Notes: generated by a model from the sequence alone, not told the origin. Positions 16,777 to 34,146 are shown, counted from the first letter of the stretch. The stretch is 35,494 nt of DNA from a virus (IMGVR_UViG_2531839180_000004:1-35494); one strand, 5' to 3'. Made by a program: numbers and translations.

Positions 16777-16781
16777 CACTG

Positions 16782-18424: not shown

Positions 18425-19476
18425 TTAGCTGTCGGCGAACTTCAGGCCAGTGACCATCGCGCACTTGCCATAGTCTTCAACGACATAAGCGTCATTGATG
18501 GACTGGTAGGTGGCGATGCGGTTGTATTCCGGCTCGTCTTTCATCAGGCGACGCATTGTTCCTTTCTGCCAGTAAATCGACAGGTTGTTGAACGAGGTGA
18601 TCAGCATCGTTGAATCCGGGAAGAACGGCGCAAGGAATACATCCAGTCCGCCAATGGCGCGCGATGACAGGATGAGCTGTCCGGCAAGTAATTCCGCATT
18701 GGGATTCTGGCCGCTGATGCTGTTCAGCACGGGCAGACGCAGCGAGTTAAACAGGTTGCGCCCCATAATCACCACGAGGTCGTCAGCTTCCTTGTGCCAT
18801 TCATCCAGCAGGGATGAGCGCGCGTCCTGTACCAGTGCATCAGCGTTCGCATACTTACCCGCGTGCGCCACGGTGTTGTCCATGTTGCGGGAGGTCAGCG
18901 TCACGTCATTCATTACGCGCTCGCTGGCGTCGGTTCTGATGTGCTCCAGCCATCCCACGTTAACGTCCTGAAGCAGCTTGTTGGTGCTGAAGTTGGACTC
19001 ATCTGCGTGAGACGTGCCGTTGAAACCGATCATGATGCGGTCAAGCGCCACCTGCCGGGCAATCTGTGTGCTGACGCGTGACTGAAAATCAGGGTGTGCC
19101 GCCCAGGCATCAAGCTGCGGATACGAAATAAACGTGTCGTAGTTCACCTGTTCGCACTGATATTTGCGGTTTTTCAGATCAACCACGTTATTCGGGTTAC
19201 GGCGTTTTGTGCCGTCATAACTGGTATTCGTGCGCGCAATCGGCCCGGTGGTGTCCAGGAGGATTTTTTCGCCTTTCTGGTCGGTCACACCGAACACGTT
19301 AATTTTTTTGTAAATTCAGTGCTCTCCTTTACTGCGTTTTCAAAACGCTGCTGCACCGAGGGTTCCACGGTAAATCGCGATACCAGTGCAGATACCGGGA
19401 TGTTGTTAAGCGACGCCTGCTGCGCCATATAGCAACCCAGCTTGTTGCGGGTAATATCTGACATCACCAGATTCAT
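18425..19476 (-). pseudogene. N: major capsid protein N, interrupted by a frameshift in a homopolymer run
   Basis: N-terminal 63 aa (19285..19476, ...FTVEPSVQQRFENAVKESTEF) and the remaining 290 aa (18425..19297, ...VTDQKGEKI) both align with P2 N but lie in different frames. The junction is an A7 run on the coding strand. Confidence 0.85.
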
Positions 19477-19499
19477 AAAAAATTTGCTCCTTTGTCTTA

Positions 19500-20336
19500 T
19501 CAGAAGTCAGCCAGTTGATCGGAGGCTGCGCCCGTTGCGGTGAACCGGTTTTGCGGATCGCCGTCCTGCGTGCGCAGTTTTTCCTTCAGTGCTGTCAGCT
19601 CTGTGGTCAGTGACGTGATTTTCTGGCGGTCCTGCTGATGGCGGGTTTCCAGCACATTAAAACGGTCGATAATGTCGGCCTGTGACGTTGCGACGCCTTC
19701 CACCGCTTCCTGAATACGGGAGAAACTGGCGTCATCCGCTTTGCGGCCACGACCAATAATCCCCATTACGCGGTTAAACCACTGGGTGCCTTCTTCCTGG
19801 CTTTGTTCTGCCATTTCGATGATTTCAGACTCGATGGCTTTGGAAATGAGCGGTGCTTCACCCTGGACACTGTTGAACGTCATCACCGCCTGACGTTGCT
19901 GTGCCGTGAATTTCAGGCGCTCAGTGCCCAGGCTTGCCGGGGTGTCGGTCATCGCCAGCCCGACCAGATAGGCGCGCCCGTTAACGGAGAACTGCGGGTG
20001 CAGTTCGATACTGGAATAGATTTTCTTGCCGTCCGCGACAAGCTGCTTCATGCGCTCGGTCGGTTCGATTTCTGCATACAGCGCAGTACGTCCGGCCAGC
20101 GGACCTTCCGTAATGTCTTCCGTACTCAGTGCGGTGACATCGCCCATTGCGGAAAATTCGCTTGACGGGCATGGCGAGAGATAGTGCTCAACGTTCACGC
20201 GGGCAGCGTAAACATCCGGGTTGAAGTTCTCGGCGGCTTCACGCAGATGTACCGGGCTGATTTCGCGGCCATCAACAGTTGATCCGGAGACAGCCACGCG
20301 AAACTTTTTGCGGGATGTCTTTTTTTCATTAGCCAT
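19500..20336 (-). CDS. O: capsid scaffolding protein O
   Basis: From the internal Met MANEKK; FRVAVSGSTVDGREISPVHLREAAENFNP aligns with P2 O. Confidence 0.9.
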   Translation of the reverse strand: MANEKKTSRKKFRVAVSGSTVDGREISPVHLREAAENFNPDVYAARVNVEHYLSPCPSSEFSAMGDVTALSTEDITEGPLAGRTALYAEIEPTERMKQLVADGKKIYSSIELHPQFSVNGRAYLVGLAMTDTPASLGTERLKFTAQQRQAVMTFNSVQGEAPLISKAIESEIIEMAEQSQEEGTQWFNRVMGIIGRGRKADDASFSRIQEAVEGVATSQADIIDRFNVLETRHQQDRQKITSLTTELTALKEKLRTQDGDPQNRFTATGAASDQLADF

Positions 20337-20404
20337 AGTTTTTGCCCCTCTGACTGGTTCTTCAGTCATGATGGCAAAGCGTAACAGGCTGATACAAAGG
20401 GCTT

Positions 20405-20429
20405 TTGTTGTAAGAAAACGGCCAGAACA
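20405..20429. promoter_or_regulatory. candidate late-promoter activator site (TTGTTGT-N12-AGAACA) in the divergent O/P region
   Basis: Same motif as at 3497-3520, located in the divergent O/P intergenic region. Confidence 0.3.
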
Positions 20430-20490
20430 GGGGGTTAAGGAGAACAGTTTCGCGCGCGGGTAATCTTCCTGTAATTACTCAGGGGGAGCA

Positions 20491-22242
20491 ATGATTCAGG
20501 ACGCTTTTGTGCGCCAGCGTGCGCGGCAACTTTACTGGCAGGGTTATCCGCCCGCAGAAATATCACGTCTGATGGGAATAAACCCGAACACGATTTATGC
20601 GTGGAAAAAACGCGACCAGTGGGATGAAACGCCACCCGTGCAGCGTGTCACGCAGTCCATCGATGCGCGCCTCATCCAGCTCACTGAAAAACAGAATAAA
20701 ACAGGTGGTGACTTCAAGGAAATAGACCTGCTGACCCGGCAGCTTAAAAAACTGCATGATGGCCAGCCGGATGCGACGGCCACAGGAAAGAAAGGCCGGG
20801 CGAAAAAACTCAAAAATCATTTCACGCCGGAACAGATTGCCGCACTGCGGGAAAAAATCATCAGCAGGCTGGAGTGGCATCAGCGGGGCTGGTTTGACTC
20901 CCTGACCCTTTGCAGGGAAGCCGGGATACGTAACAGGATGATCCTGAAATCCCGACAGATTGGGGCGACCTGGTATTTTGCACAGGAAGCTCTGCTGATG
21001 GCGCTGCGTGACGATGTGGCGCAACCTTACCAGCGTAACCAGATTTTTTTGTCTGCGTCGCGTCGTCAGGCGTTCCAGTTTAAAAGCATTATTCAGAAGG
21101 CCGCGGCTGAAGTTGATGTGGAGCTGAAAGGGGGCGATAAAATCATCCTCTCCAACGGCGCAGAGCTGCATTTTCTCGGCACTTCTGCTGCGTCGGCACA
21201 GTCCTATACGGGCAATTTTTATTTTGATGAATTTTTCTGGGTCAGTCGCTTTGCTGAACTGCGCAAGGTAGCTGGCGCTATGGCAACCCTCAGCGGACTG
21301 CGGCGCACCTACTTCTCCACGCCATCCACCGAAACGCACGAGGCATACGCCTACTGGAACGGCGACCGCTGGAACGAGAAAAAGGCCTCGCATAAACGCC
21401 AGCGTTTTTCTGTGGACTGGAAAACGCTGCATAACGGGCTTATCTGCCCTGACCGGACGTGGCGGCAAATTGTCACGCTGGAAGATGTGGTTAATCACGG
21501 CTGGAAACACACCGATATTGACGAAATCCGTGATGAAAACACCGAAGACGAGTTCCTCAATCTCTATATGTGTGAGTTTGTTCGCGAAGGGGAATCGGCA
21601 TTTAACCTGAATATCCTGATTGGCTGCGGTGTTGACGGATACGACGACTGGAAAGACTGGAAACCTTTTGCTCCCCGCCCGATGGGGAATCGTCCGGTAT
21701 GGATTGGGTATGACGCAAACGGCAGCAGTGGCAACGGCGACAGCGGCGCTGTGTCCGTGGTGGTTCCTCCGGCTGTTCCTGGTGGCCGTTTTCGAACGGT
21801 GGAGACGCGACGCGTTCAGGGGCTGGAGTTTGAAGAACAGGCCAGAGTCATTGAAGAGTTCACGTGTCGCTACAACGTGGAACACATCGGCATTGATGTG
21901 ACGGGCGGGAACGGGGAGGCTGTTTATCAGATAGTGAAGCGGTTTTTCCCTGCTGCTATTCCGTACACCTTCACGCTGTCATCCAAACGGTCGCTGGTAC
22001 TGAAAATGCTGCAAATAATGCGTGCCGGACGCTGGGAATACGATCGCGCCGAACGCGAGCTGGTCGCGGCCTTTAACGCCGTGCGTAAGGTGAAAACACC
22101 GGGCGGCTTTATCACTTACGAAACGGACCGCGCGAGGGGGATCAGCCACGGCGACCTTGCGTGGGCAACCATGCTTGCTGTCATTAACGAACCAATTGGC
22201 GGCGAAGGAGAAAACGAGCGTTTCACGGTTATGGAGTTCTGA
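20491..22242 (+). CDS. P: terminase ATPase (large) subunit P
   Basis: 583 aa with a P2 P-like N-terminus and nuclease region. Confidence 0.95.
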   Translation: MIQDAFVRQRARQLYWQGYPPAEISRLMGINPNTIYAWKKRDQWDETPPVQRVTQSIDARLIQLTEKQNKTGGDFKEIDLLTRQLKKLHDGQPDATATGKKGRAKKLKNHFTPEQIAALREKIISRLEWHQRGWFDSLTLCREAGIRNRMILKSRQIGATWYFAQEALLMALRDDVAQPYQRNQIFLSASRRQAFQFKSIIQKAAAEVDVELKGGDKIILSNGAELHFLGTSAASAQSYTGNFYFDEFFWVSRFAELRKVAGAMATLSGLRRTYFSTPSTETHEAYAYWNGDRWNEKKASHKRQRFSVDWKTLHNGLICPDRTWRQIVTLEDVVNHGWKHTDIDEIRDENTEDEFLNLYMCEFVREGESAFNLNILIGCGVDGYDDWKDWKPFAPRPMGNRPVWIGYDANGSSGNGDSGAVSVVVPPAVPGGRFRTVETRRVQGLEFEEQARVIEEFTCRYNVEHIGIDVTGGNGEAVYQIVKRFFPAAIPYTFTLSSKRSLVLKMLQIMRAGRWEYDRAERELVAAFNAVRKVKTPGGFITYETDRARGISHGDLAWATMLAVINEPIGGEGENERFTVMEF

Positions 22243-23288
22243 TGAGCAGAAAAAATAAAAAAGTGCGCATGAGTTCACGCATTGATCTCGCTGATGCGCT
22301 CAGGAAAGAATCATCGCTCAGTGCATTCACATTTGATGGTCCTTATCGCCTGACCGGGCATGACCTGCTGGACAATATGTACTGTGCTGATAACGGGCGG
22401 TGGTATGAAACCCCGGTAGACTGGTACGGTCTGGCAAGAGCTGCCCGGCAAACGTCCTGGCATCAGTCTGCGCTTTACTTTAAGCGCAATGTATTGCTCG
22501 GCTGCTATATTCCGCACCCGCTGCTTTCCCGGCAGGATTTCTCGGCGCTGGCGCTGGACTGGTTTGTGTTCGGTAACGCATTCCTTGAGCTTCGAAGCAA
22601 TATGCTCGGCGAACCGCTTAAATTACGGCACGCCCTGGCGAAATACATGCGACGCGGAAGCGATCTTGAATCATGGTGGTATGTGCAGGATGGCAAGGAT
22701 GCGTTTCAGTTTCGCCCTGGTAAAGTGTGCCACCTGATGAATCCTGACATTAACCAGGAAATCTACGGCATGCCGGAATATCTTGGCGCATTACTCTCGG
22801 CCAGCCTGTCTCATTCGGCGGACATGTTCAGAAAACTGTATTACGACAACGGATCCCACGCCGGGTGCATCATCTACATCGGTGCAGCGCAGGTAAACCG
22901 CGAAAGCATGGACTCCCTGAAAGAAACGCTACAGGGTGCACGTGGTGGTGGTGCGTTTAAAAACGTGCTCATTCATGCCCCCAACGGTGGCAAAGAGGGG
23001 GTGCAAATTTTGCCGTTCCAGCAGATCACCGCAAAGGATGAGTTCATGAATGTTAAGGCGGCATCCCGTGATGATGTGCTGGCTGCGCACCGCGTTCCGC
23101 CGCAACTGATGGGGGCGATGCCGGGCGAAAAAAGTGCGTTTGGTGATGTGGAGAAGGCCGCGCGGGTTTACGCAATTAACGAGCTGATGCCCGTCATGGA
23201 GGCCATGAAGCACATCAATGACTGGCTTGGCGAAGAGGTGATCCGCTTTAACCCTTACGCACTGTTAGATACCCAGCCCACATCCTGA
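22242..23288 (+). CDS. Q: portal (capsid vertex) protein Q
   Basis: 348 aa, P2 Q-like; start overlaps the P stop (TGATG). Confidence 0.95.
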   Translation: MSRKNKKVRMSSRIDLADALRKESSLSAFTFDGPYRLTGHDLLDNMYCADNGRWYETPVDWYGLARAARQTSWHQSALYFKRNVLLGCYIPHPLLSRQDFSALALDWFVFGNAFLELRSNMLGEPLKLRHALAKYMRRGSDLESWWYVQDGKDAFQFRPGKVCHLMNPDINQEIYGMPEYLGALLSASLSHSADMFRKLYYDNGSHAGCIIYIGAAQVNRESMDSLKETLQGARGGGAFKNVLIHAPNGGKEGVQILPFQQITAKDEFMNVKAASRDDVLAAHRVPPQLMGAMPGEKSAFGDVEKAARVYAINELMPVMEAMKHINDWLGEEVIRFNPYALLDTQPTS

Positions 23289-23312
23289 CGCGCTTCGCTT
23301 GTCTGCTGCTTC

Positions 23313-23341
23313 GCCGGGGCATAAAAAATTTATGCCCCGAC
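23313..23341 (+). terminator. hairpin downstream of Q (GGGGCATAAA-AAA-TTTATGCCCC)
   Basis: Perfect 10-bp inverted repeat about 25 bp after the Q stop, but no clear U-tract. Confidence 0.35.
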
Positions 23342-23710
23342 TCTCCAGCTCCTGTATCAATCAGATAATTTCACGACGCTTTTCTGCTTATTGCCATCAT
23401 CGGCGGTCAGACTCTTACGCAATCCCACCGCGTTGACTGCATGTTATTCGCCGCCTCAGTGCGATTTTGACGGCCTTACCTTTCACCCCATCAAATCAGA
23501 ATCCCTCACGTATTTTTCACGCTCAGCGTGAGAAATACAGCCATTCTGTTGTGTCTCTGCGACATCGTTCAGGGAATGCTATTTACCCCCTGAAACGCGG
23601 GCTGTTCCCCCGTCACCTGCGCGCAGAAAAAGCGCGTTTTTTTGTGCACGCACGGATCCCTGACGGATCCAGCCGCCACGCGGGCCAGAAGGGCAAAAAT
23701 TCGTTCAAAA

Positions 23711-23741
23711 AAATTGTGCAAATTTGTGCACTATTGTGCGC
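23711..23741. promoter_or_regulatory. three direct TTGTGC(A/G) repeats at 10-11 bp spacing upstream of the ATPase gene
   Basis: ATTGTGCA, TTTGTGCA and ATTGTGCG roughly one helical turn apart, about 90 bp upstream of the ATG at 23826. Confidence 0.35.
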
Positions 23742-23825
23742 TAAATCGAATCCCTGTATTGCTTACCAGCTCATTACATGTAAACTCAACAGGTAGCAAT
23801 ATTTACTTCCAAAAGGTGGAACAAA

Positions 23826-25025
23826 ATGGCTTTTACAAAAATCAGAATCGATAATCTGTTTTGCTTTGAAAATAGCATCCTTGACTTAAGCTTCTCCAGA
23901 CCCCCGATCAACAGCTCACTGGAAGGTGAGTACATTGATGGATTTGAAAAGTTCTACTTCAAAAAGGTTTGCATCGTTTCTGGTGCTAATGCATCTGGTA
24001 AAACATCTCTTGGTCGCGTGATGCTTTCTGTGTTGCGTTTTCTCAGTAGTGGTGTTTTCAATCCAGAACCGTTAAAAATTACTGACAAAAGAAAACCTGC
24101 ATATATAGAGGTTGACTTTTTCCAGAGTCATTTAAAATGTTTGTTTAGGGCAGGTGTCTGGCTTAGGGCTATGGATGAGTCTGTTGTTGTAGAAAAAATT
24201 GCAATGGCATCTGTTGATTTAAGAAGCTCGGAATCATGCGCAAAGACGACCAAAAGATTGGATGCTGTGTGGGATGCGCAAAAGTTTGAATTAAATGGTC
24301 AAAATAGATTTTTTTCAACCGAAAACGCTAACTCAAAAGAATTTTCCCAATATTTAGAGGATTTGGACTTTGTTCTTGGTTGGCATTTCATTCTATCTGA
24401 AAACCAAGAGAACACGGATAAAATATCACGAATTAAGAAGAATGTGCTTAATAGCATATTAAAAACCTTTGACAATACTGTTAAATCTGTCTCAGGACTC
24501 ACTCTTAAAGATGATGAGGGAAAGGAGGATTTGCAGGGTTATTCAGTAGTCTTCAATAATGGAGATAGAGTTATTATTGATATGGAAGGTGATATAACAA
24601 ATAAAGATAGACTGTCTCGTGGTACTTATGAGGCAGTAAAAATATCCCATCTCCTGTCAGGAGTGCTTGAAGATAAAATAGAAGAGCGAGAGTTCAATTT
24701 CCCTTGCAGTGGGGTGTACTTTTTGGATGAGAAAATGGCCTTCACTCATACTGAATTAGAAAAAATGATGGTCACGCTGATTATATCTAAGCTTTGCAGA
24801 TATGGTCAATTTATATACACCACACATAATTATGATATCTTGAGCTTAGATCTGCCTACGCATTCATATACTTTTACTAAAAAAGTAGATGGTGTAACCA
24901 CTTTTGTTGAAGCTACCACACATCATAAAAAGAATGATCGCAATCTTTTAAATAAAGTAAAAAATGACTGTTTTGCAACAATACCTGACGTTTCATTAAT
25001 CGAAGAGATGCTATTTGAGGATTGA
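23826..25025 (+). CDS. ABC-type/AAA_21-like ATPase (cargo, candidate defence ATPase)
   Basis: Walker A GANASGKTS, Walker B VYFLDE, H-loop-like TTHN. AT-rich. AAGGTGG Shine-Dalgarno before the ATG. Confidence 0.85.
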   Translation: MAFTKIRIDNLFCFENSILDLSFSRPPINSSLEGEYIDGFEKFYFKKVCIVSGANASGKTSLGRVMLSVLRFLSSGVFNPEPLKITDKRKPAYIEVDFFQSHLKCLFRAGVWLRAMDESVVVEKIAMASVDLRSSESCAKTTKRLDAVWDAQKFELNGQNRFFSTENANSKEFSQYLEDLDFVLGWHFILSENQENTDKISRIKKNVLNSILKTFDNTVKSVSGLTLKDDEGKEDLQGYSVVFNNGDRVIIDMEGDITNKDRLSRGTYEAVKISHLLSGVLEDKIEEREFNFPCSGVYFLDEKMAFTHTELEKMMVTLIISKLCRYGQFIYTTHNYDILSLDLPTHSYTFTKKVDGVTTFVEATTHHKKNDRNLLNKVKNDCFATIPDVSLIEEMLFED

Positions 25026-25027
25026 TT

Positions 25028-25564
25028 ATGGCAGTTAAGAAATTTGCTATTATTCTTGTTGAGGGAGATACGGAAAAAGCATTGTTTCAGGATTTCAAAA
25101 CATTGCTAGGCTATCCTATTAAGAAAATAGTAATTGCTAATTTATGGAATGTTAATATAAATAAATACATGCCAGCATTAACCGAAAATAGCGAAATCAT
25201 AGTGGTTTTTGATACGGATAGGATTGAGAATCTTGATAGATTTAAGAATAATCTCAATCTATTAAAGGCGAAAAAACACACAATCCACCTATTTCAACAA
25301 ACAAGCAATTTTGAGGATGAGCTTGCCAATGCTTGTGGTGTAAGTAATAGAAAGTTGTATTCTTGTTTTTGCCCAAAGATCATTTCTGCAGATAACTTCA
25401 AGAATGAATTCATTGCGCTGCGCAACAGGATGATGAAATTAGATGGACTTGGACTAAATAAAACGTTGCTTTGGAGTAGAGGGATTATCCCCCAATTGAG
25501 AGATTATAATTTTCATGTTTCCTCTCATGATGATTATTTTTATAAAAATAATAGTCCTCATTAA
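25028..25564 (+). CDS. Toprim-like small protein (RloB/DUF4276-like) coupled to the ATPase
   Basis: N-terminal FAIILVEGDTE and VVFDTD acidic motifs match the Toprim/OLD-type pattern. ATG 2 bp after the ATPase stop with a GAGGA Shine-Dalgarno. AT-rich. Confidence 0.7.
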   Translation: MAVKKFAIILVEGDTEKALFQDFKTLLGYPIKKIVIANLWNVNINKYMPALTENSEIIVVFDTDRIENLDRFKNNLNLLKAKKHTIHLFQQTSNFEDELANACGVSNRKLYSCFCPKIISADNFKNEFIALRNRMMKLDGLGLNKTLLWSRGIIPQLRDYNFHVSSHDDYFYKNNSPH

Positions 25565-25675
25565 GATAAACATATTTTAAGACACAAGACCGCCAGCTAG
25601 GCGGCCTTATATCTTTGACGCTCGACTCCTTATTTGTTGATTGTTTTCAGAACTGGAAACCTCCCGTGCAAAGTT

Positions 25676-25987
25676 CTAATCGGGAAATAACGCCCGGATA
25701 TTTCCGGCCATCTGACTGGTTATCTGTGCGGTGGGGGCTGTCTGTAACATGTGGCGTTCTGCCCTGGTTTGTGTCACTGATAACGCCTCATCGTCAGCCC
25801 ATGCAGCCAGTCGTTAAGCCTCTGCCGGATTCATTTTCAGAAGTGCCAGCCCGGCCAGAAAAGCCACGCGTTGGCCGCTTTTGCGGGCTTCTGGTGTAAG
25901 GCTGTCCAGCCAGGCGCATGCTTCGCCTTCGTTCTTGACGGCGGCGGGCTTCAGATAGAAACTTATCCGTCTGGTTGGTGTCGTCAT
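25676..25987 (-). pseudogene. ParR-like partition adaptor interrupted by an in-frame TAA
   Basis: From Met MTTPTRRISFYLKP the N-terminus resembles R1 ParR, then an in-frame TAA. The continuation in the same frame (...ITSQMAGNIRALFPD) resembles the ParR C-terminal region. Confidence 0.5.
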
Positions 25988-25991
25988 TGGT

Positions 25992-26951
25992 TTACTCCTT
26001 GTCCATTGCGTACAAACCATTGACCAGAGCAAACTGTGGCACCCCGTCCGCGATGAAAGTCGCATTAACTCCGCAGGCTTCGCGGATAGCGGGTGCCACA
26101 ATCTCCGCCCCTCCACCGACAACCATCACCCGCCCGTAACCCGAAAAACCCGCCAGCGCGCGGATCACTCGTTGTTTCAGTGTTTCTTCCTTTTCACGAA
26201 TAACCGCCATCAGGCTGTCGTAATGCGCGTCATTGTGGATGTGCTGGCGCAGCCAGGCTTCATCATGGCGATGTTCGATAATGGTATTGGCGATGTGGTG
26301 ACTGGTGCGCATACCGTTAGTGGCCATCACCGACAGTACGGCATCGGCCATCAGAGAAACGCCTACGTGTGGATCGCAAAACACCTGGCTGATACCTGCC
26401 AGTTACCCCTGAACCTTTGCCACATCCAGCGTGGTTCCGCCCAAATCCACAATCAGCAGGGATTCAAACGGACTCATGTCAGCCAGTGCCTTAAAGCCAG
26501 CCGGAATGGATTCAGGCATAACCCGCACGTTACGGATAGTGAATGCTTCGCCGTTCTGGTACTCCACCGGGCGCATAACGTTCGCTTTTTTGCGGTTGAT
26601 GTTGGCCATGTCCGGCTGTGCGTTTGTGTCGAAATACTCGCTCAGTGGCAGGGTGACAACCACATCCACCTCCTGTGGCGTGATGCCTGATTTGACCAGC
26701 GCGTGATGAATGGCAATGACATTCACATCGCTGTATTGGTATTGCGTGTCGGTCGTCTGGACAAAGCGATCGCTGACCGGATCAAAACCATAGCGCACGC
26801 CATCAAGCATGTAGTTCGCGGGCTGCGTGCCACCGAACGGCGCAGACCATTCCGACTTGAAGCTGTTCGGGCTGATGGCGTTGCGGCGTTCGCCGTTCTC
26901 AGTCCATGCCAGCTTGATGTTGGTGGAGCCGTCGTCGATACAAATTTTCAT
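25992..26951 (-). pseudogene. ParM/StbA-like actin-type segregation ATPase interrupted by one in-frame stop codon
   Basis: MKICIDDGSTNIKLAW...DLGGTTLD...VMVVGGGAE is colinear with plasmid R1 ParM. ORFs 26403..26951 and 25992..26384 are in the same frame, separated by a single TAA and six sense codons. Confidence 0.8.
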
Positions 26952-26975
26952 GTCGATTTTCCTTATGTTGATTAA

Positions 26976-27100
26976 TTAATCGTTTACGGGATTCTGAAAT
27001 CCCGCTTTTGCCTGTTTTGTGTGCGCTTCATATATCGCGGCGCGTTTTTTGCTCATTTACGGGATTCGTGAGTCCCGTTTCTGTCTGTTTTTTGTTTCCA
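26976..27100. repeat. two copies of a ~45-bp direct repeat, each with an internal GGGATTC...(A/G)TCCC hairpin, upstream of parM and overlapping the 3' end of A
   Basis: TTTACGGGATTCTGAAATCCCGCTTTTGCCTGTTTTGTGT and TTTACGGGATTCGTGAGTCCCGTTTCTGTCTGTTTTTTGT, about 75 bp apart. Confidence 0.5.
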
Positions 27101-29850
27101 CTGGTCAGGCCACCCCGCAGCAGGTCTGCTTTGCGGCGGGCGCGTTCAGTGGTTTCACTGATTCTCTGTGCGTGCTCTGCGTCGCGGATGGCGCGCAGCA
27201 TGTCAGAAAGCACGGTAACGGGGGTTTTCATGGTGTTCTGGTCCTGCTGAAGTGTGGATGCCAGGCGTGCGGCGGCTTCAGGGTCTGATGCCCCCAGCTG
27301 TGCCAGATAGCTGGCGACCGGGTTATGGCGGATCTCCGTGCTGCTTACGCCGTGATTACGGCTCAGGCGCTGCCAGAGCTGCGTGATTCGGCTGTCCGGG
27401 CGGGTATCCGGTTTGCGTACAATTTCAAATCCCTGCGGTGCAATGATGCTGCCGTCAACGTACAGACTGCCGCCCCGTAACAGGTGCTGCATCTGTTGTT
27501 CACCGATATGCAGGCCGAGAGATTCAGCAGACTCCCGCCATTCTTTAGCGAGTAATTCGTGGTTATCAGGCAAAGGCCGCTGCTGTTTGCGGCTCTGTGT
27601 CCAGCTCTGCATTTCATCACGGCTGTTTTTTGCCTGTTTGTCACGAAGCGAACGTATCAGCGCCCGGCGTTCGTGCCGTTTCAGTGAGCGCATCCATTCG
27701 TTCACTTCAACGCCGTCAGGGAGCTGCGGCCACGGTGCTGGCCGTTCTTCCGGCTGTTCTGTCCCGTTGTTGTCCGTTTCCTGTACACGGGGACAGTTAT
27801 TGCCACGAGTCCAAGGGGCGGCAGGGCCGCCCTGAAGGTCAAAACCATTTTCGCGGGCGCTGTCTTCCGCTTCCGGTTTGCGTCTTACCAGCTTCCAGTT
27901 ATCCGGATGCGTGCACACACGGGAGGATTCCCCGATGAGTGGTGACCAGATCCCGTAAATCTGTACGCTCTGTTCGCCGTAATCGTTCAGCTCATCGGCG
28001 AGGTCGTAGGCGGTGCGAATCAGGTAGTCTTTGCGTGGAACAAGTACGCCGCCCTGTTTCTCTATGTAGGTGGCAAAACATCCGGCATCAGCGGCAGCGA
28101 GTACCGCATCCATTGCGTCATCCTTCAGCCGTTGCGGGCCTTCCGGGTTGCGTGCCATCTGGCTGGCAAGGCGGCGGAGTTCACGCCACACCTGACGGGA
28201 AGGGATGCCAAAGAACTGGAACTGGCGGACCCGGTGAAGGCGCGCCCAGCCGATGGCGCGCTCCACGCTCTCGGCCATTGATTTCCCGGTTTCGTGGTCA
28301 ACGCGTGGTTTGCCCGTTTTCGGGTCGATGCCATCCACGGCGCGGCTGTCCAGGTTTTTTCCGATGTAGGTGGCGATGTAGCTGGTTGGCGTACCTTTTG
28401 AGCCGTCTACGTACTCCGCCTTAAAACGCGGAGTTATGTCATTGCCCAGCTCGTGGCGGTCTTCCTGAATGGCAATATCGCAGACGTGGGACACAATGGT
28501 GTCGATTTCTTCCGGATGTGCAAAGACCATCATGTGCCAGTGCACGGTGCCGTCATGATGAGGCTCCACGGTGCGGATGCCATACCAGCGCAGGCCGTCG
28601 CGGTTCAGTTTTTTGCGGACCGCCGCAAAAAACGTGTTAACTAGGTAATCGCTGGAATCGCGCATGGTGGCCCCGTTCCATTTGGGGTTCGGATGACCGT
28701 TCTCCGTTGTTGCGTGGTATTTTGACGGGCAGGTGACAGTCAGAAACACCGCTCTGTCGCCACGGGCTTCGGCCAGAAGTTCCAGCCCTTTCATGGTGGC
28801 CATCATTTCTGCCTTACGGTGAACCGGGTTACTTACTCCCGCGTAATACACTGTCTCGAGATCAATCGTGAACCCGTCTTCGTTTTCCAGCATGAAACTT
28901 TTCAGGAAATCGCGTGTTTTCTCGCACTGTGCGCGAAACTCGCTTAACGCGTCCTGGCTCAGATAGGGCGATGTTTTTCTGGAAACCAGACAGGCGGCGC
29001 GGAGTTGTTCTTCCCGCCACTCGCAACGTAAAAGCCACAGTTTGCGTTTCCACCAGTCCGCACAGGTCAGGCGAAGAATTGCGCCCGGCAGCAGCTCCGT
29101 GTCTGGTTCGTTCCTCCGGTCTTTGTCTGTTGTCAGTGCGTCATAATGTGGAGGCATGGCGTGCAGGTGTAACGCCATGCGGGCCAGCATCTGATACGCC
29201 TTCAGCGTTACATCCATGGTCAGCTCGCCATCGGTCGCGCCAAAGCCATCGCAGAGTTTTTCGAAGGTGCTGCTGAACATCGCCGCCGTCATGGTGGCCA
29301 GCGTCTGTATCTGGTGTTTGTTGAGCTGCGGCAGGTAAAGCAAATCGTCCAGGCGTTCGCGTCCGGCAAGGGAGCGATAGCCCGGTGTCAGCCAGCGTCC
29401 GTCAGTGCGATCCAGACGTTCGAATATTTTGCGCAGGGTTCCGCGCGCGTAGCGTTCAGCCTGCCAGCTCTTTTTGCCTTTCCGGCGATCGGCTTCCTGT
29501 TTTTTGCGCAGGAAGGAGAGGTGGCGAATAAGCGGATCGCGCAGATAGAACGGCAGCAGGCGGAGCGAGGCCATGGCTTCATCCACCGCGCCGCGTGCCT
29601 GTTTTCTGGCGTCTCCTGCCAGTGTGATGGTTTTGTCCTGTTTTTCCTGTGCGTCCAGGCTTTTATTAATCAGGTTGCCCAGCGGCGTTGCGGAGAACGC
29701 CGCATCAGCCATTTCCTGGCGGCGCTCGTTCTCTACCCGGTAGGCATCCAGCCAGGAGGAAAGCGCGGATTCAGGAGCGGGGATCCCCGCTCCTTCACGC
29801 CCCACTGCGTGGCGCGGTTGTTGCCAGTCCCTGATGTACTCCGTTGACAT
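27028..29850 (-). CDS. A: replication initiation protein A (rolling-circle HUH endonuclease)
   Basis: 940 aa with HUH motif VHWHMMVF and Tyr motif SYIATYIGK; P2 A-like, in the A position. Confidence 0.9.
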   Translation of the reverse strand: MSTEYIRDWQQPRHAVGREGAGIPAPESALSSWLDAYRVENERRQEMADAAFSATPLGNLINKSLDAQEKQDKTITLAGDARKQARGAVDEAMASLRLLPFYLRDPLIRHLSFLRKKQEADRRKGKKSWQAERYARGTLRKIFERLDRTDGRWLTPGYRSLAGRERLDDLLYLPQLNKHQIQTLATMTAAMFSSTFEKLCDGFGATDGELTMDVTLKAYQMLARMALHLHAMPPHYDALTTDKDRRNEPDTELLPGAILRLTCADWWKRKLWLLRCEWREEQLRAACLVSRKTSPYLSQDALSEFRAQCEKTRDFLKSFMLENEDGFTIDLETVYYAGVSNPVHRKAEMMATMKGLELLAEARGDRAVFLTVTCPSKYHATTENGHPNPKWNGATMRDSSDYLVNTFFAAVRKKLNRDGLRWYGIRTVEPHHDGTVHWHMMVFAHPEEIDTIVSHVCDIAIQEDRHELGNDITPRFKAEYVDGSKGTPTSYIATYIGKNLDSRAVDGIDPKTGKPRVDHETGKSMAESVERAIGWARLHRVRQFQFFGIPSRQVWRELRRLASQMARNPEGPQRLKDDAMDAVLAAADAGCFATYIEKQGGVLVPRKDYLIRTAYDLADELNDYGEQSVQIYGIWSPLIGESSRVCTHPDNWKLVRRKPEAEDSARENGFDLQGGPAAPWTRGNNCPRVQETDNNGTEQPEERPAPWPQLPDGVEVNEWMRSLKRHERRALIRSLRDKQAKNSRDEMQSWTQSRKQQRPLPDNHELLAKEWRESAESLGLHIGEQQMQHLLRGGSLYVDGSIIAPQGFEIVRKPDTRPDSRITQLWQRLSRNHGVSSTEIRHNPVASYLAQLGASDPEAAARLASTLQQDQNTMKTPVTVLSDMLRAIRDAEHAQRISETTERARRKADLLRGGLTSGNKKQTETGLTNPVNEQKTRRDI

Positions 29851-29856
29851 GTTGAC

Positions 29857-30222
29857 TTACTCCGCTTTGCCGCTCAGTGCGTCGTGGCAGACGGCAGCCA
29901 GCCGCTGAATTTCCAGTACGGTGTATTCTGTGTTGGCATGGCGGTGTGTGATGCGAACGCTGTCAGCTATCACATCTGCAATTACAGATGACAGTCGCTG
30001 GTAAATGCCAATAACGTACGGATTACCACCTTCAACACGGTAAAGCCTGTAATTGCCCTGGTGGCTGTCAATCATGTAACGACCATCAATAACAATCTTT
30101 CCGTCAGCAAGCTGTGGTGCAGGCAGGGATTTCAGATACATGTCGTAACGCTCACGCACGCGAACGGCAAGATCACGCTCTGTGTTGAGCAGGTATTCAA
30201 GAAAGTCGTTGGCGAGAATCAT
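29857..30222 (-). CDS. hypothetical early protein upstream of A
   Basis: 121 aa from the internal Met with an AAGAGGA Shine-Dalgarno; its stop abuts the A start. Confidence 0.5.
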   Translation of the reverse strand: MILANDFLEYLLNTERDLAVRVRERYDMYLKSLPAPQLADGKIVIDGRYMIDSHQGNYRLYRVEGGNPYVIGIYQRLSSVIADVIADSVRITHRHANTEYTVLEIQRLAAVCHDALSGKAE

Positions 30223-30294
30223 TGCGGCAATCCTCTTGTTACAGATGTGCGAAGGCCTCCCGCCGCAAGGTGCAGGAAAGGCCAAGAACAGGAA

Positions 30295-30525
30295 TTAATG
30301 GAGTTTGTTTTGCTGCTGGATGAGCTGCTGAAGCTCGCGCAGATCATCCGCCAGATAGCTAAAAACAGAGGCGGAATAAGTGTTTGATAGCGCATGACTG
30401 CGCTCATGCAGCATATTGATGTGCATGATTTGCGCGACGCGTGATGCGCGGAAAAGTCTGCGGTTGATTTCAGTCTGGATGTGACGACGCGCAGCGTATG
30501 CGCGCTGTTGTTTGCGGTTTGCCAT
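30295..30525 (-). CDS. hypothetical small basic protein (76 aa)
   Basis: Intact ORF co-oriented with A; function not recognised. Confidence 0.45.
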   Translation of the reverse strand: MANRKQQRAYAARRHIQTEINRRLFRASRVAQIMHINMLHERSHALSNTYSASVFSYLADDLRELQQLIQQQNKLH

Positions 30526-30700
30526 GGGGTGGCCTCTTTGGTTGTAAGTTTTGAAAACTCACCATCCAGAGCTGCGAAACTGTGGGTGGCGAGACGTACG
30601 AGGTTCGCAGTACCGGCAACCAAAGAACCCGGCCCGACCGAAGTCGGCCCCGTACGCCCCACCATAATTCGTGTGCGAAAAAGACGTGGCAATACAGTAC

Positions 30701-30725
30701 GCACAAAAAAACCGCTGGCGCGGTT
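30701..30725 (-). terminator. intrinsic terminator on the - strand between the SPFH operon and the A operon
   Basis: AACCGC-TGGC-GCGGTT stem-loop with an A7 run on the + strand, giving a U-tract immediately after the stem on the - strand RNA. Confidence 0.5.
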
Positions 30726-30862
30726 GTGCGCTTTGGTTGTCAGCAGGCTGCGAAACCCGGCACCCGTTTTATGAGGTGCAGCGGAAATGTAACCTGACTG
30801 ATTGCGGCATGGCAAGCGGTTTTTTTGTGAGAACGGCATACTAAAAAATCCTGATACTGCTC

Positions 30863-30887
30863 CGGCCAGCGATTTTCACTGGCCGGG
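30863..30887 (-). terminator. terminator-like hairpin immediately downstream of the SPFH gene
   Basis: CCGGCCAG-loop-CTGGCCGG 8-bp stem; the U-tract lies about 13 nt away, so it is not canonical. Confidence 0.3.
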
Positions 30888-30892
30888 TTTAA

Positions 30893-31723
30893 TTACTTCA
30901 CCGGAACAAACGGAACAGCGGTATTACTGGTCATGTATTGCGGCAGCGTGCCGTTCCATTTGTTGATAGCTTCCAGCTCCATAACGCCGGGATTCTGGCG
31001 CAGAGCTTCACCACGCAAACGAATGGCATCGGCTTCAGCCTGGGCTTTTGTACGAATGGCATCAGCCTGTCCGGCAGCTTCTGCGCGCAGCATGTTGGCT
31101 TCTGCTTCGCGTTGCTTGACTTCCTGCTCGCGTTGCAGAGTTTTCTGGTTTGCCGTGACTTTGGCATTAATGCTGTCGATAACGGTTGGCGGGTATTCCG
31201 GCTTACCCACATAAGAGAGGCTCATGACCTGAATGCCGATGGGGGTCATCTCTTCCTGAATATCTTTAAGTGCTGAATCCAGTAGTTCAGACTTACCACC
31301 GTCGATAAACTTATCGGTGGTCATTTTGCTGGCCAGTCGGTTGAGTGCATCGGCGATCTTCTGGCGCAGGTCAGTGTCGGTAATGTCATCCACGCCTTTG
31401 CGGTAGGTTTGAAACACTGTAGTAACTTTGGATGAATCAACCTTGTAGGCCACACCGATGTGATAGCCGATGGTTGTGCCGTCACTCATCTGGAAGCTGA
31501 ACGGCTCATCGTAAGTCTTCATTTGTTTGAAGGTCGGGAAGATGTAAACCTCTGTATTCCAGCCTGTCCAGTAGCGGCCAACGCCAACCACTTCACCGAC
31601 GCCTTTGTCGTCGCCCAGTTTGTTGACTTTGATGCCCACATTACCTGGCTCAACGCGATCGCAGCCAACCAGCAGGATGGCTGCAAAAATCGGGAGAATC
31701 TGAAAGAGTTTGAATTTCTTCAT
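30893..31723 (-). CDS. SPFH/band-7 (stomatin/HflC-like) lipoprotein
   Basis: Signal peptide with lipobox LLVGC, followed by a band-7-like core and a Gln/Ala/Glu-rich coiled-coil tail. Confidence 0.8.
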   Translation of the reverse strand: MKKFKLFQILPIFAAILLVGCDRVEPGNVGIKVNKLGDDKGVGEVVGVGRYWTGWNTEVYIFPTFKQMKTYDEPFSFQMSDGTTIGYHIGVAYKVDSSKVTTVFQTYRKGVDDITDTDLRQKIADALNRLASKMTTDKFIDGGKSELLDSALKDIQEEMTPIGIQVMSLSYVGKPEYPPTVIDSINAKVTANQKTLQREQEVKQREAEANMLRAEAAGQADAIRTKAQAEADAIRLRGEALRQNPGVMELEAINKWNGTLPQYMTSNTAVPFVPVK

Positions 31724-31923
31724 TGTTTGATTTCCTTGATGTACTTACTGAAAAGGCGAACAACGCCTGCCGGGTACAGCATGGCAATGAAAATGCCCAG
31801 CAATACCAGGAAGGAGCTGTCTGATGAGATCATTCGGGGGAGTAGTCCTGCATACAGAATGAGAGATATGAGGACGCATACCAGCGCCCACATGTATGCG
31901 CGAAACCAGGTCTTTTTGTTCAT
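31720..31923 (-). CDS. small two-helix membrane protein (NfeD-like partner of the SPFH protein)
   Basis: 67 aa with two hydrophobic segments; its stop overlaps the SPFH start. Confidence 0.6.
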   Translation of the reverse strand: MNKKTWFRAYMWALVCVLISLILYAGLLPRMISSDSSFLVLLGIFIAMLYPAGVVRLFSKYIKEIKQ

Positions 31924-31934
31924 ATCGCGGTCCT

Positions 31935-32234
31935 TTACTGGTTAAGGAAAAAATCAAAAACCTTGTCGATGCGTTGCAGTAGCTCTCGTTGCATTGCTTC
32001 CGGCGTTTCTGGTTCACCAGGCGAACCCAGTGGTGCGCAGAAATCAGCGATTTCATGATGGAGCGTCAGGCGAATGGCTGGAGCCATGGTTCTGGTGTGC
32101 TCCAGCTCATCCAGCAGTGCCAGCACGGCAGATGGCGAGAGCATTGCGCGAAACGCCAGTAATTTTTGATGCGTTGCCATTCGTTGCAGGTCAGTCGCCA
32201 GTTCGCGTAGTTCCTGGTAGTTGATGGTGCTCAT
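31935..32234 (-). CDS. hypothetical early protein (99 aa, acidic)
   Basis: Intact ORF in the early operon. Confidence 0.45.
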   Translation of the reverse strand: MSTINYQELRELATDLQRMATHQKLLAFRAMLSPSAVLALLDELEHTRTMAPAIRLTLHHEIADFCAPLGSPGEPETPEAMQRELLQRIDKVFDFFLNQ

Positions 32235-32476
32235 GCTCTGGCTTCCTTCAGTAGCTGGTTAAACATGTTGGTAAGTGGATTGCCGCACCCGAACGGCATC
32301 GGGTTTATCTGGTAAGAAAAGCGACCGCCTGTTTTGCGCTCTTTTCTTATGACCGAACCGCTACGCCAGAGACGGCGTAACTCCGTGTTAATGGTTGTGG
32401 TTGGGGTATTCAGTGCTGCGGCGATTTCTCCACCGCTACACCCCGGATTGGCGGCGATATAATCAAGAATGGTCAT
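32231..32476 (-). CDS. small winged-helix-like DNA-binding protein
   Basis: 81 aa; GGEIAAALNTPTTTINTELRRLWRSGSV resembles a wHTH recognition region. Confidence 0.45.
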   Translation of the reverse strand: MTILDYIAANPGCSGGEIAAALNTPTTTINTELRRLWRSGSVIRKERKTGGRFSYQINPMPFGCGNPLTNMFNQLLKEARA

Positions 32477-32727
32477 CTGCGTGACTCCTGTACCTGTCGG
32501 ATAAGGTTCACCTGCACCACATTCGTGGCGCAGAAGTAAGTGCCGTCAGTGAGATAGATGTGATGTGCATCCTTTTCTGAACGGTGTTTGTCGATTGTGG
32601 TAATCAGGCGTTCGTCAACTTCGTATTCACGTCCTCTGGAGGTGAAACGAACGACAGGAAAATGCTTAATTGCCATTACGCCTCCTTGGCGTGTGCGAAT
32701 ACCTCCGCGAATGCGGATTGTTTTCAC
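32473..32727 (-). CDS. hypothetical early protein
   Basis: ORF with overlapping stop/start to its neighbour; the true start may be the internal Met MAIKHF. Confidence 0.4.
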   Translation of the reverse strand: MKTIRIRGGIRTRQGGVMAIKHFPVVRFTSRGREYEVDERLITTIDKHRSEKDAHHIYLTDGTYFCATNVVQVNLIRQVQESRR

Positions 32728-32872
32728 ATATTCTTATTTAACCTGGAGTCTTATTTGCGCGGTTATTCTTCAGTGAAAAAGCGTTCAATCTTTTTTACTG
32801 AATTAATAATTCGCATAATTCCAATAGCGCAGGCCACCGAAATAATCAGAACAAGCCATGAGATAAATATAC

Positions 32873-33115
32873 TCATGCAATATTCCCCAGTTTATATGGC
32901 TCAATATGGTCCCCGTTTTCTGCGGCGCAGACGAGTATGGAAAGCTCGTCGAGCGCGTCCGGGTCGTCAATGTAAAAAGCTGTGTCGTATATACTCTTGA
33001 TGGCCCTGGTCAATGACTCTCGGGCTGCGAGCTCAGCATGAGTGCCTGATGCGCTTAAGCGAAAATGAAAGCGCTCAAGTGCTTTATTGACGAGAGTTTT
33101 ATATTCTTTATCCAT
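32873..33115 (-). CDS. hypothetical early protein (80 aa)
   Basis: Intact ORF in the early operon. Confidence 0.4.
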   Translation of the reverse strand: MDKEYKTLVNKALERFHFRLSASGTHAELAARESLTRAIKSIYDTAFYIDDPDALDELSILVCAAENGDHIEPYKLGNIA

Positions 33116-33126
33116 CGCAACGCCCT

Positions 33127-33405
33127 TTAATCTGCCTTCTGAATTTCAGCTTCTGAATCCATGCAGATAATTTCGAGATAGGGTTTATTGCCATTAACCT
33201 GACGTGCTTTTTCAGCTTCGCTAATAATTTCGCATACGTGTTGATATGGAATCTCTACGGTCAGGCGTGTGCCGTTCAGATAAATGTAAGTGGCCGTGCT
33301 CTTATCTACCGGAACCACTCCATCAATAGCTGATGCGCGCAACAACAGCTCACCGCGAAAATCAATAAAGCGGATAAATACACCCTGAGCATGGTCTTTG
33401 GTCAT
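33127..33405 (-). CDS. hypothetical early protein (92 aa from internal Met)
   Basis: Internal start chosen to avoid overlap with the upstream ORF. Confidence 0.4.
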   Translation of the reverse strand: MTKDHAQGVFIRFIDFRGELLLRASAIDGVVPVDKSTATYIYLNGTRLTVEIPYQHVCEIISEAEKARQVNGNKPYLEIICMDSEAEIQKAD

Positions 33406-33415
33406 AAAGCACCTG

Positions 33416-33754: not shown

Positions 33755-33768
33755 AAAATGACACCTCG

Positions 33769-34047: not shown

Positions 34048-34085
34048 GTGTGATAACCTGCGCTATCTGTGGTTGTTTGTGACTT

Positions 34086-34138: not shown

Positions 34139-34146
34139 TGTCAATG

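What the first reader, a model, noticed from the sequence alone, without database searches (positions are those of the whole stretch)
25676..26951. Plasmid-type parMR partition module inside the prophage, with one in-frame stop codon in each gene
Seen in sequence: a ParM-like actin ATPase, colinear with R1 ParM over about 320 codons, contains a single in-frame TAA (N- and C-terminal ORFs share a frame, 6 codons apart). The adjacent ParR-like gene also has an in-frame TAA, with ParR-like sequence continuing after it. Established: parMRC drives plasmid segregation and is not part of canonical P2. Inference: a module acquired from a plasmid or plasmid-prophage, now decaying. Two in-frame TAA codons in neighbouring genes are unlikely to be homopolymer sequencing errors.
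Basis: partly seen in the sequence, partly recalled or inferred. Interest (0 to 1): 0.6.

Follow-up and report, generated by a model that had tools for sequence, protein, structure and literature searches.

The report
Broken plasmid-partition genes in a P2-like prophage
A P2-family prophage carries the plasmid-style parM/parR DNA-segregation cassette found in about a quarter of such E. coli phages. In this bacterial lineage both genes are knocked out by real, inherited stop codons, which is ordinary loss of an accessory function.

Summary
On the minus strand, parM (26951..25992, 319 codons) has TAA at codon 183, and parR (25987..25676, 103 codons) has TAA at codon 58. Homology is clear: Pfam StbA_N 2e-82 plus ParM C-terminal domain 4e-68, colinear with R1 ParM (E 1e-92), and Plasmid_stab_B 1e-23 running across the parR stop.

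The stops are not sequencing errors. The window is 100% identical to Escherichia clade I strain TW10509 (GL872204.1). An independent ENA scaffold has the same prophage with 0 mismatches over 19.7 kb and both stops. The exact truncated products are on record on 32 and 60 contigs.

Close relatives have CAA (Gln) and TAC (Tyr) at these codons. None of about 1,400 copies in 5,426 complete E. coli genomes has either stop.

The "recent plasmid acquisition" reading is not supported. The cassette is a conserved part of P88-like (Xuanwuvirus) phages and is already noted by Rousset et al. 2022. True plasmid ParMs are at most 53% identical.

The rest of the phage is intact and under purifying selection (64 synonymous, 17 missense private changes). 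Having nonsense changes as the only two private coding changes in the cassette is mildly odd, since about 3% of random changes give stops. The event is otherwise ordinary.

The parts
25992..26951 (-). parM pseudogene (319 codons, actin-like segregation ATPase) interrupted by TAA at codon 183
   Evidence: Pfam StbA_N plus ParM C-terminal domain. Colinear with R1 ParM (1mwk). Intact 960-nt gene in relatives L001, L002, L003 and L004.
26403..26405 (-). in-frame ochre stop in parM: Gln183 CAA to TAA (plus-strand G to A at 26405)
   Evidence: codon comparison with L001/L002. (private to the window lineage against 7 relatives). (no exact 71-mer match in about 1,400 copies). (same stop in ENA scaffold L005/L007).
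26403..26951 (-). N-terminal ParM fragment ORF, 182 aa. It keeps the phosphate-1 (IDDGS) and phosphate-2 (VDLGGTT) motifs and lacks everything after residue 182.
   Evidence: The exact 182-aa product is on 32 contigs, with NCBI accessions EGB73223.1, ENY9605847.1, HBE3200509.1 and MCF6615294.1.
25992..26384 (-). C-terminal ParM fragment ORF (GTG at codon 190, 130 aa). It holds the adenosine-binding VVGGGAE motif. There is no evidence that it is translated.
   Evidence: It is called as a separate gene in L008.
25676..25987 (-). parR pseudogene (103 codons, ParR/StbB-type centromere-binding adaptor) interrupted by TAA at codon 58
   Evidence: Pfam Plasmid_stab_B, 1.1e-23, residues 6-75. Intact 312-nt gene in relatives.
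25814..25816 (-). in-frame ochre stop in parR: Tyr58 TAC to TAA (plus-strand G to T at 25814)
26980..27095 (-). Candidate parC centromere/operator. Two 43-nt direct repeats (26980-27022 and 27053-27095) each hold an imperfect palindrome ACGGGAyTC..rrTCCCGT (26983-27004 and 27056-27077). They span the gpA 3' end and the 76-bp gap before parM.
   Evidence: repeat D1, inverted repeat I1. (2 matches against 0.02 expected). (98% mean column identity in 7 relatives). The function is inferred by position only.
26956..26956 (-). A third lineage-private substitution, G to T on the coding strand, 5 nt upstream of the parM ATG in the spacer after the AAGGA ribosome-binding site
27028..29850 (-). gpA-type replication endonuclease (940 aa), intact, directly upstream of parM on the same strand. 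This is context: parMR sits at the end of the early/replication gene block.
   Evidence: PF05840 Phage_GPA.

Best explanation
This is the type II (actin-type) partition cassette that belongs to P88-like (Xuanwuvirus) members of the P2 phage family. It consists of a candidate centromere/operator, then parM, then parR, placed directly after the replication gene gpA.

How it normally works (inferred from the R1 paradigm): ParR dimers bind the repeated boxes upstream of parM. ATP-ParM filaments capture the ParR-DNA complexes and push sister circular phage genomes apart while the phage is episomal, that is after infection, after excision, or in plasmid-like carriage.

What happened here: in the Escherichia clade I TW10509 lineage the machine has been knocked out by two independent point mutations that are real and vertically inherited.
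- parM Gln183 to ochre removes residues 183-319, including the adenosine-binding GGGA motif.
- parR Tyr58 to ochre removes the C-terminal 46 residues. In the R1 paradigm the ParM-binding tail lies at the ParR C-terminus.

The prophage is kept by integration, since the integrase is intact and it sits at the usual site. The loss is therefore tolerated, while the rest of the phage stays intact and under purifying selection. This is loss of a dispensable accessory module, not a recent acquisition in decay and not an artefact.

Shown: gene identity, the mutations, their inheritance, and conservation of the cassette elsewhere. Inferred: how the cassette works in a phage, the parC assignment, and why the loss was tolerated or favoured.
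For: Identity of the genes.

Intact orthologues at the same position in P88 and many E. coli prophages.

Ancestral codons CAA and TAC, with all other coding differences from the nearest relative synonymous (5 in parM, 1 in parR).

The stops are private to this lineage:
- No exact 71-mer match in about 1,400 copies.
- Private against 6-7 aligned relatives.

The stops are real:
- The window is 100% identical to GL872204.1 (L008).
- ENA scaffold ERZ28646956 (L005/L007) has 0 mismatches over 19,687 bases and the same 182-aa and 57-aa products.
- The products are on 32 and 60 contigs under several NCBI accessions.
- GL872204 is Escherichia TW10509, clade I (PMC12304041).

The rest of the phage is constrained:
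- Private changes elsewhere are 64 synonymous and 17 missense, with no further nonsense changes, over 23.5 kb.
- About 40 phage genes are full length compared with STEC388.

parM loss recurs: strain TUM9812 has an independent Gln189 CAG to TAG, annotated 'internal stop', with parR intact. Phage record 503458 has a fragmented ParM.

The cassette is an old phage lineage: plasmid and D6 ParMs are 48-53% identical, with none between 60% and 95%.

Literature: about a quarter of P2-like phages carry a putative partition system (PMC9122126).
Against: Plain neutral drift does not fit the pattern well. The only two private coding changes in the cassette are both nonsense, although only about 3% of random single-base changes in these genes create stops. 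Both nonsense changes in 23.5 kb fall in this 1.27-kb module. That hints at selection for inactivation or at a compensatory second hit, but it is one post-hoc observation.

No experiment shows what parMR does in an integrating phage. The parC assignment rests on position and conservation only, and the promoter scan found no sigma-70-like site there.

The order of the two mutations is unknown.

I could not see raw reads. The evidence for authenticity is agreement between independent assemblies.
Confidence: 0.8

Rival explanations
1. Selected or compensatory double knock-out. One stop came first, for example truncation of ParR or loss of the ParM motor. That left a harmful half-system, such as unregulated or uncapped ParM filaments, or ParR-parC complexes that pair phage or chromosomal DNA without a motor. 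The second stop was then favoured rather than neutral.
For: The only 2 private coding changes in the cassette are both nonsense, against an expected fraction of about 3%. Both nonsense changes of the whole prophage lie in this one module. A third private change lies at -5 of the parM start. The rest of the phage is under purifying selection, so the phage was not simply abandoned.
Against: TUM9812 carries a parM nonsense allele with an intact parR, so a ParR-only state is at least tolerated. No single-stop intermediate of this lineage was found. This is a sample of one and was noticed post hoc. About 1,300 genomes carry the intact cassette integrated with no sign of cost.
Confidence: 0.2
2. Sequencing or assembly artefact: the true sequence has sense codons at both sites.
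For: The window's assembly does contain two probable homopolymer undercalls, T7 for T8 in gpN and T5 for T6 at the 3' end of the TOPRIM gene. It is therefore not error-free.
Against: Both stops are substitutions outside homopolymers. An independent ENA metagenome scaffold has both stops with 0 mismatches over 19.7 kb, while it corrects the two homopolymer sites. The truncated products occur on 32 and 60 contigs from several submitters.
Confidence: 0.02
3. The genes are still functional. This could be through ochre readthrough or suppression, through ParM made as two complementing fragments (reinitiation at GTG codon 190, preceded by GCAGGT), or because the 57-residue ParR fragment, which may retain DNA binding, serves as a stand-alone regulator.
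For: GTG190 lies 6 codons after the stop, with a weak Shine-Dalgarno-like GCAGGT 9 nt upstream. Independent alleles stop at codon 189, immediately before the same GTG. The parR stop leaves the first 57 residues, which cover most of the Pfam Plasmid_stab_B match.
Against: There is no tRNA gene in the window. TAA is the most efficient E. coli stop codon (general knowledge). The break at residue 183 cuts inside domain II of the actin fold rather than between domains (alignment to 1mwk). The clustering of stops at 183 and 189 is explained by the fact that Gln181, 183 and 189 are the only Gln codons in residues 137-202, the length range sampled by that protein cluster. None of about 1,400 other copies is split.
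Confidence: 0.04

Closest known systems
parMRC (stbAB) of plasmids R1/NR1, the type II actin-like partition system
   Same: Same gene order, with repeats upstream, then parM, then parR. ParM is colinear with R1 ParM over 2-316 (E 1e-92) and keeps the phosphate-1, phosphate-2 and adenosine motifs. ParR matches Pfam Plasmid_stab_B.
   Different: Identity is only about 50% (best plasmid hit 52.9%). The cassette sits in an integrating phage after the replication gene gpA. The candidate centromere is two about 20-bp palindromic boxes 73 bp apart rather than ten 11-bp iterons (R1 detail from general knowledge). Here both genes carry stop codons.
parM/parR of Escherichia phage P88 and other Xuanwuvirus (P2 family) phages and prophages
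   Same: The same cassette at the same locus, at 94-99% DNA identity. This is the family to which the window's prophage belongs.
   Different: P88 and nearly all relatives have intact 319-aa ParM and 103-aa ParR. The window lineage has Gln183 to stop and Tyr58 to stop.
Putative plasmid partitioning system of P2-like phages noted by Rousset et al. 2022 (PMC9122126)
   Same: The same gpA-gpQ interval. The paper reports it in about a quarter of P2-like phages and suggests plasmid-like maintenance. I found it in 1,307 of 5,426 complete E. coli genomes, 24%.
   Different: The paper does not study the system and does not describe inactivated alleles.
StbA-type partition gene of phage-plasmid D6 (P1-like)
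   Same: It is the only other phage record with a ParM homologue (47.8% identity).
   Different: D6 is a 91-kb phage that I know as a P1-like phage-plasmid, where partition is expected to matter. The window's phage integrates.
AlpAC of Corynebacterium glutamicum prophage CGP3 (PMC4446434, PMC5539076)
   Same: An actin-like protein plus a DNA-binding adaptor, encoded by an integrated prophage and reported as required for efficient viral DNA replication (abstracts). It offers a possible model for why an integrating phage keeps such a system.
   Different: Different host phylum. No sequence relationship was tested here. This is an analogy only.

Membership tests
Type II (ParMRC) partition system | Actin-fold ATPase ParM: StbA_N plus ParM C-terminal domain, colinear with R1 ParM, with phosphate-1, phosphate-2 and adenosine motifs | tested here: met
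   Pfam 1.8e-82 and 4.4e-68. PDB 1mwk E 1.3e-92 over 2-316. IDDGS, VDLGGTT and VVGGGAE are visible in that alignment.
Type II (ParMRC) partition system | Small ParR/StbB adaptor gene directly downstream of parM | tested here: met
   Pfam PF10784 Plasmid_stab_B, 1.1e-23, residues 6-75. The gene starts 4 nt after the parM stop. The fold was not modelled, and there was no PDB sequence match.
Type II (ParMRC) partition system | Centromere parC: repeated ParR-binding sites next to the operon, overlapping its promoter | tested here: inconclusive
   Two conserved palindromic boxes within 43-nt direct repeats lie upstream of parM. There are only two copies, no promoter consensus was found, and binding was not tested.
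Type II (ParMRC) partition system | Uninterrupted reading frames, meaning a potentially functional system | tested here: not met
   TAA at parM codon 183 and parR codon 58. In this window it is a pseudogenised member.
Type II (ParMRC) partition system | ParM polymerisation and ParR/parC-dependent DNA segregation | not testable with these tools
   Requires biochemistry or cell biology.
P88-like (Xuanwuvirus) P2-family prophage | P2-type gene order with gpA - parM - parR - variable cargo - gpQ, and high identity to P88 | tested here: met
   97.5% identity to P88 over the cassette. The P88 gene map matches. Gene-by-gene match to the STEC388 prophage.
Phage-plasmid (extrachromosomal prophage) | Stable maintenance as a plasmid instead of integration | tested here: inconclusive
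   The window element has an intact integrase and lies in the chromosome scaffold at the same site as in STEC388. One 34,461-bp circular P88-like genome is deposited as plasmid pZ1323PEC0009-2, but it also encodes an integrase and may be excised phage DNA.

The most novel reading that the evidence does not exclude
The double stop is not drift. It is a selected, two-step disarming of a partition machine whose half-functional state is harmful in a lysogen or during phage replication. This would imply that parMRC in integrating P2-like phages is active and consequential, for example by positioning replicating or pre-integration phage genomes as AlpAC does in CGP3. The natural Gln183-stop/Tyr58-stop lineage, together with the parM-only mutant in TUM9812, would then give ready-made genetic material to test what a plasmid partition system does for a phage that integrates.
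Probability: 0.15. Interest if true: 0.45.

Novelty: already known. Interest (0 to 1): 0.2.

Why it matters
It matters only modestly. The cassette and its wide presence in P2-like phages are already annotated and published, and loss of an accessory prophage gene by nonsense mutation is routine.

The useful outcomes are these:
- A clean demonstration that the stops are genuine and lineage-specific.
- Correction of the "recent plasmid acquisition" idea.
- Natural loss-of-function alleles (a double knock-out here, parM alone in TUM9812). These could be used to ask why an integrating phage conserves a plasmid segregation system, which appears not to have been tested experimentally.

Tried and rejected
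- Exact k-mer scans for the stop-bearing sequences found nothing in IMG/VR, JGI metagenome contigs or GTDB species representatives. The carriers were found only by exact-protein look-up.
- Two look-up hits, L006 and L009, turned out to be different prophages (about 95% identity) whose contigs merely end at the stop position. I rejected them as carriers.
- The PDB sequence search with ParR gave no match. NCBIfam gave only sub-threshold ParM matches.
- The promoter scan found no sigma-70-like site near parM, so an own promoter for the cassette remains unsupported.
- Literature searches for ParM in P2-like phages and for Xuanwuvirus returned mostly irrelevant papers. Only Rousset et al. was informative.
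- I considered a mutational or functional hotspot at ParM residues 183-189, since there are three independent stops there. I rejected it as unproven. The protein cluster samples only products of about 137-202 aa, and Gln181, 183 and 189 are the only Gln codons in that range.
- I could not determine which stop came first. No single-stop relative of this haplotype was retrievable with the permitted look-ups.
- I considered a suppressor tRNA on the element and rejected it, because there are no tRNA genes in the window.

Full report
**What is at the coordinates.**
Both genes lie on the minus strand.
- One reading frame runs from the ATG at 26951 to the TAA at 25992-25994. It is broken once, by TAA at 26405..26403 (codon 183). 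The next possible start in that frame is GTG at codon 190, six codons later.
- Four bases after the parM stop, a second frame runs from the ATG at 25987 to the TAG at 25676-25678. It is broken once, by TAA at 25816..25814 (codon 58).

**Identity of the genes.**
- With the stop masked, the 319-residue product matches Pfam StbA_N (1-157, 1.8e-82) and the ParM C-terminal domain (159-316, 4.4e-68).
- It aligns end to end with R1 ParM (PDB 1mwk, 2-316 against 2-318, E 1.3e-92). The phosphate-1 (IDDGS), phosphate-2 (VDLGGTT) and adenosine (VVGGGAE) motifs are in place.
- The 103-residue product matches Pfam Plasmid_stab_B (1.1e-23) over residues 6-75, so homology continues past the stop.
- ParR has no sequence match in the PDB.
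- The observation and the ParM/ParR assignment are confirmed.

**Nature of the stops.**
- The closest complete-genome relatives are E. coli CE0021a and 504838, at 99.2% and 99.1% over 1,431 bases with the same flanking genes. Both have intact 960-nt parM and 312-nt parR.
- Codon by codon, the window differs from CE0021a by Gln183 CAA to TAA in parM and Tyr58 TAC to TAA in parR. It also differs by five synonymous changes in parM and one in parR. There are no missense changes.
- Neither site is in a homopolymer run.
- Against seven aligned relatives, four positions in 25600-27030 are private to the window lineage. They are the two stops, a change at -5 of the parM ATG (26956), and one downstream non-coding site (25621) for which only two relatives could be compared.

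**Are the stops real?**
- None of about 1,400 copies of the cassette in 5,426 complete E. coli genomes matches the 71-mers around either stop exactly. 1,276 records differ from the parM 71-mer by exactly one base.
- Exact-protein look-ups nevertheless find the truncated products in public assemblies. The 182-aa ParM fragment is on 32 contigs and the 57-aa ParR fragment on 60, under several unrelated NCBI accessions plus ENA and Logan.
- L008 (GCA_000190995.1, scaffold GL872204.1) is 100% identical to window 15814-35494 and is evidently the source. A paper lists GL872204 as Escherichia TW10509, cryptic clade I, ST-747 (PMC12304041).
- An independent ENA metagenome scaffold (ERZ28646956; L005/L007) has the same prophage with 0 mismatches and 3 indels over 19,687 bases. 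It carries both stops.
- The three indels are informative:
  - T8 versus T7 in the major capsid gene gpN. The window is frameshifted; the scaffold and all relatives are intact.
  - T6 versus T5 at the 3' end of the TOPRIM gene. The scaffold and relatives give 172 aa.
  - An in-frame 6-bp CGAGTC copy-number difference in gpA.
- The window's assembly therefore has two likely homopolymer undercalls, while the two TAA substitutions are reproduced independently. The sequencing-error rival is close to excluded.
- Two other look-up hits (L006, L009) are different prophages whose contigs simply end at the site. They are not carriers.

**What the module is in context.**
- The window is essentially one P2-family prophage, running from hok/ogr at the left to the integrase at the right. 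It matches the STEC388 prophage gene for gene. In STEC388 the prophage lies between ihfA and btuC.
- The order is gpA (replication endonuclease, 27028-29850), parM, parR, a variable cargo pair, then the portal gene gpQ.
- The same order, with intact parMR, is found in:
  - phage P88 and 13 other phage records, identified as Xuanwuvirus from the P88 and P884B11 records;
  - 1,307 of 5,426 complete E. coli genomes, with 1,453 of 1,455 places on chromosomes.
- Rousset et al. [quoted passage not shown] The presence of the module is therefore already known.
- In PLSDB the identity distribution of ParM matches is sharply bimodal. Six records are at 95% or more, and these carry the phage-type cassette next to a gpA-type replication endonuclease gene in five of the six; pZ1323PEC0009-2 is a whole P88-like phage genome. 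At least 4,994 records are below 60%, the best at 52.9%.
- The only non-P88-like phage with a homologue is phage D6, which I know as a P1-like phage-plasmid, at 47.8%.
- The cassette is thus an old, phage-specific ParM lineage and not a recent plasmid import.
- One 34,461-bp circular P88-like genome with integrase and intact parMR is deposited as a plasmid (pZ1323PEC0009-2). This is weak evidence that episomal forms exist.

**Candidate centromere.**
- Upstream of parM, across the gpA 3' end and the 76-bp gap, lie two 43-nt direct repeats (26980-27022 and 27053-27095).
- Each contains an imperfect palindrome, TTTACGGGATTC....rTCCCG.
- There are 2 matches against 0.02 expected by chance.
- The region is 98% conserved across seven relatives.
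- By position this is the likely ParR-binding parC/operator. However, there are only two sites, the consensus scan found no promoter, and binding is untested.

**Consequence of the mutations (inference from the R1 paradigm and the actin fold).**
- The 182-residue ParM fragment ends just after the phosphate-2 motif. It lacks the rest of domain II, the adenosine-binding motif and the C-terminal part of domain I, so it cannot be a working ATPase or filament former.
- The 57-residue ParR fragment keeps most of the region matched by the Pfam ParR/StbB model and loses the C-terminal 46 residues. In R1, ParM binding lies at the ParR C-terminus (general knowledge; PDB 4a62 appears among the hits). It might still bind DNA, but it cannot couple DNA to ParM.
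- The segregation machine is therefore dead in this lineage.

**Drift or selection?**
- I counted substitutions private to the window lineage, using a panel of 3-8 relatives per gene over 23.5 kb of coding sequence. The result was 64 synonymous, 17 missense and 2 nonsense.
- The phage as a whole has therefore evolved under clear purifying selection, and about 40 genes are full length.
- The two nonsense changes are the only private coding changes in parM and parR, and both lie in this 1.27-kb module.
- Only about 3% of random single-base changes in these genes create a stop. A second nonsense hit with no missense change is unexpected under plain drift, at roughly the 3-5% level.
- This is a single post-hoc observation. 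It fits a compensatory second hit, but it does not prove one.
- Against an obligatory pairing: strain TUM9812 carries an independent parM knock-out (Gln189 CAG to TAG, annotated "internal stop") with an intact parR. Other truncated ParM and ParR products exist in the protein collection, and the phage 503458 record has a fragmented ParM.
- Loss of parM therefore recurs in resident prophages, as expected for a function not needed while integrated.

**Verdict.**
These are ParM/ParR homologues, they are inactivated, and this is not a homopolymer artefact.
This is the standard, conserved, already described partition cassette of P88-like P2-family phages, pseudogenised in one Escherichia clade I lineage.
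- Novelty is low. The only mildly interesting residue is the all-nonsense mutation pattern, together with the untested question of what a plasmid partition system does for an integrating phage.

Noticed in passing
window 19303-19310 (gpN, major capsid gene, minus strand): A 1-bp deletion in an A8 run (A7 here) splits the major capsid gene into 63-aa and 290-aa ORFs. The gene is intact (350 aa) in the otherwise identical ENA scaffold L007 and in all relatives. This is probably a homopolymer undercall in the TW10509 assembly. If real, the prophage could not make capsids.
   Followed up: yes
window about 25531-25536 (3' end of the TOPRIM gene, 25022-25564, plus strand): A T5 run here is T6 in L007. 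The relatives and L007 encode a 172-aa product, while the window reads 178-180 aa with a different tail. This is a second likely homopolymer error in the same assembly.
   Followed up: partly
window 23826-25564 (plus strand): A two-gene cargo sits between the portal gene and parR, in the P2 gpA-gpQ hotspot. It comprises a 399-aa ATPase (PADLOC AbiLi 1e-27; Pfam AAA_15) and a 172-180-aa OLD-like TOPRIM protein (AbiLii 7e-5). This is an AbiL-like, PARIS/Gabija-related defence pair. The same pair flanks parMR in CE0021a, 504838 and strain 1303.
   Followed up: partly
window 711-2147 (plus strand): A 478-aa ORF between ogr and gpD, in the second variable locus of P2-like phages, has no Pfam or PADLOC match. 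STEC388 has a DUF2971 gene at this position instead. This is unknown cargo.
   Followed up: partly
window 27800-27811 (gpA, minus strand): An in-frame 6-bp CGAGTC tandem copy-number difference separates the window (1 copy, gpA 940 aa) from the ENA scaffold (2 copies, 942 aa). Apart from the two homopolymer sites, it is the only difference over 19.7 kb.
   Followed up: no
window 26976-27056 (minus strand): A 26-aa ORF (MSKKRAAIYEAHTKQAKAGFQNPVND) lies between the two palindromic boxes and echoes the gpA C-terminus (..KKQTETGLTNPVNEQ..). It is a by-product of the 43-nt duplication and is probably not a gene.
   Followed up: no
L013 (E. coli TUM9812, NZ_CP128926.1) 2141-3100: An independent parM pseudogene, Gln189 CAG to TAG, lies immediately before the GTG that starts the window's C-terminal ORF. 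parR is intact there. A second background (P0004, GCO15096.1, 15 contigs) ends at the same residue.
   Followed up: partly
L010 (NZ_CP148288.1, pZ1323PEC0009-2), whole record: A complete 34,461-bp P88-like phage genome is deposited as a circular plasmid. It has an integrase, intact parMR, and a DNA methyltransferase plus Com-family regulator gene pair. It could be an episomal or excised form.
   Followed up: partly
window 30893-31723 and 30219-30839 (minus strand): The early region carries an SPFH/Band_7 protein (2e-30) and an Ash-family protein. The SPFH gene is shared with STEC388 but absent from several other relatives.
   Followed up: no
L006 and L009 (contig ends): Two unrelated draft assemblies have contigs that stop one base short of the variable positions 26405 and 25814. 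This is most simply an ascertainment effect of the exact-length protein look-up. It could also reflect assembly-graph breaks in genomes with two related prophages.
   Followed up: no
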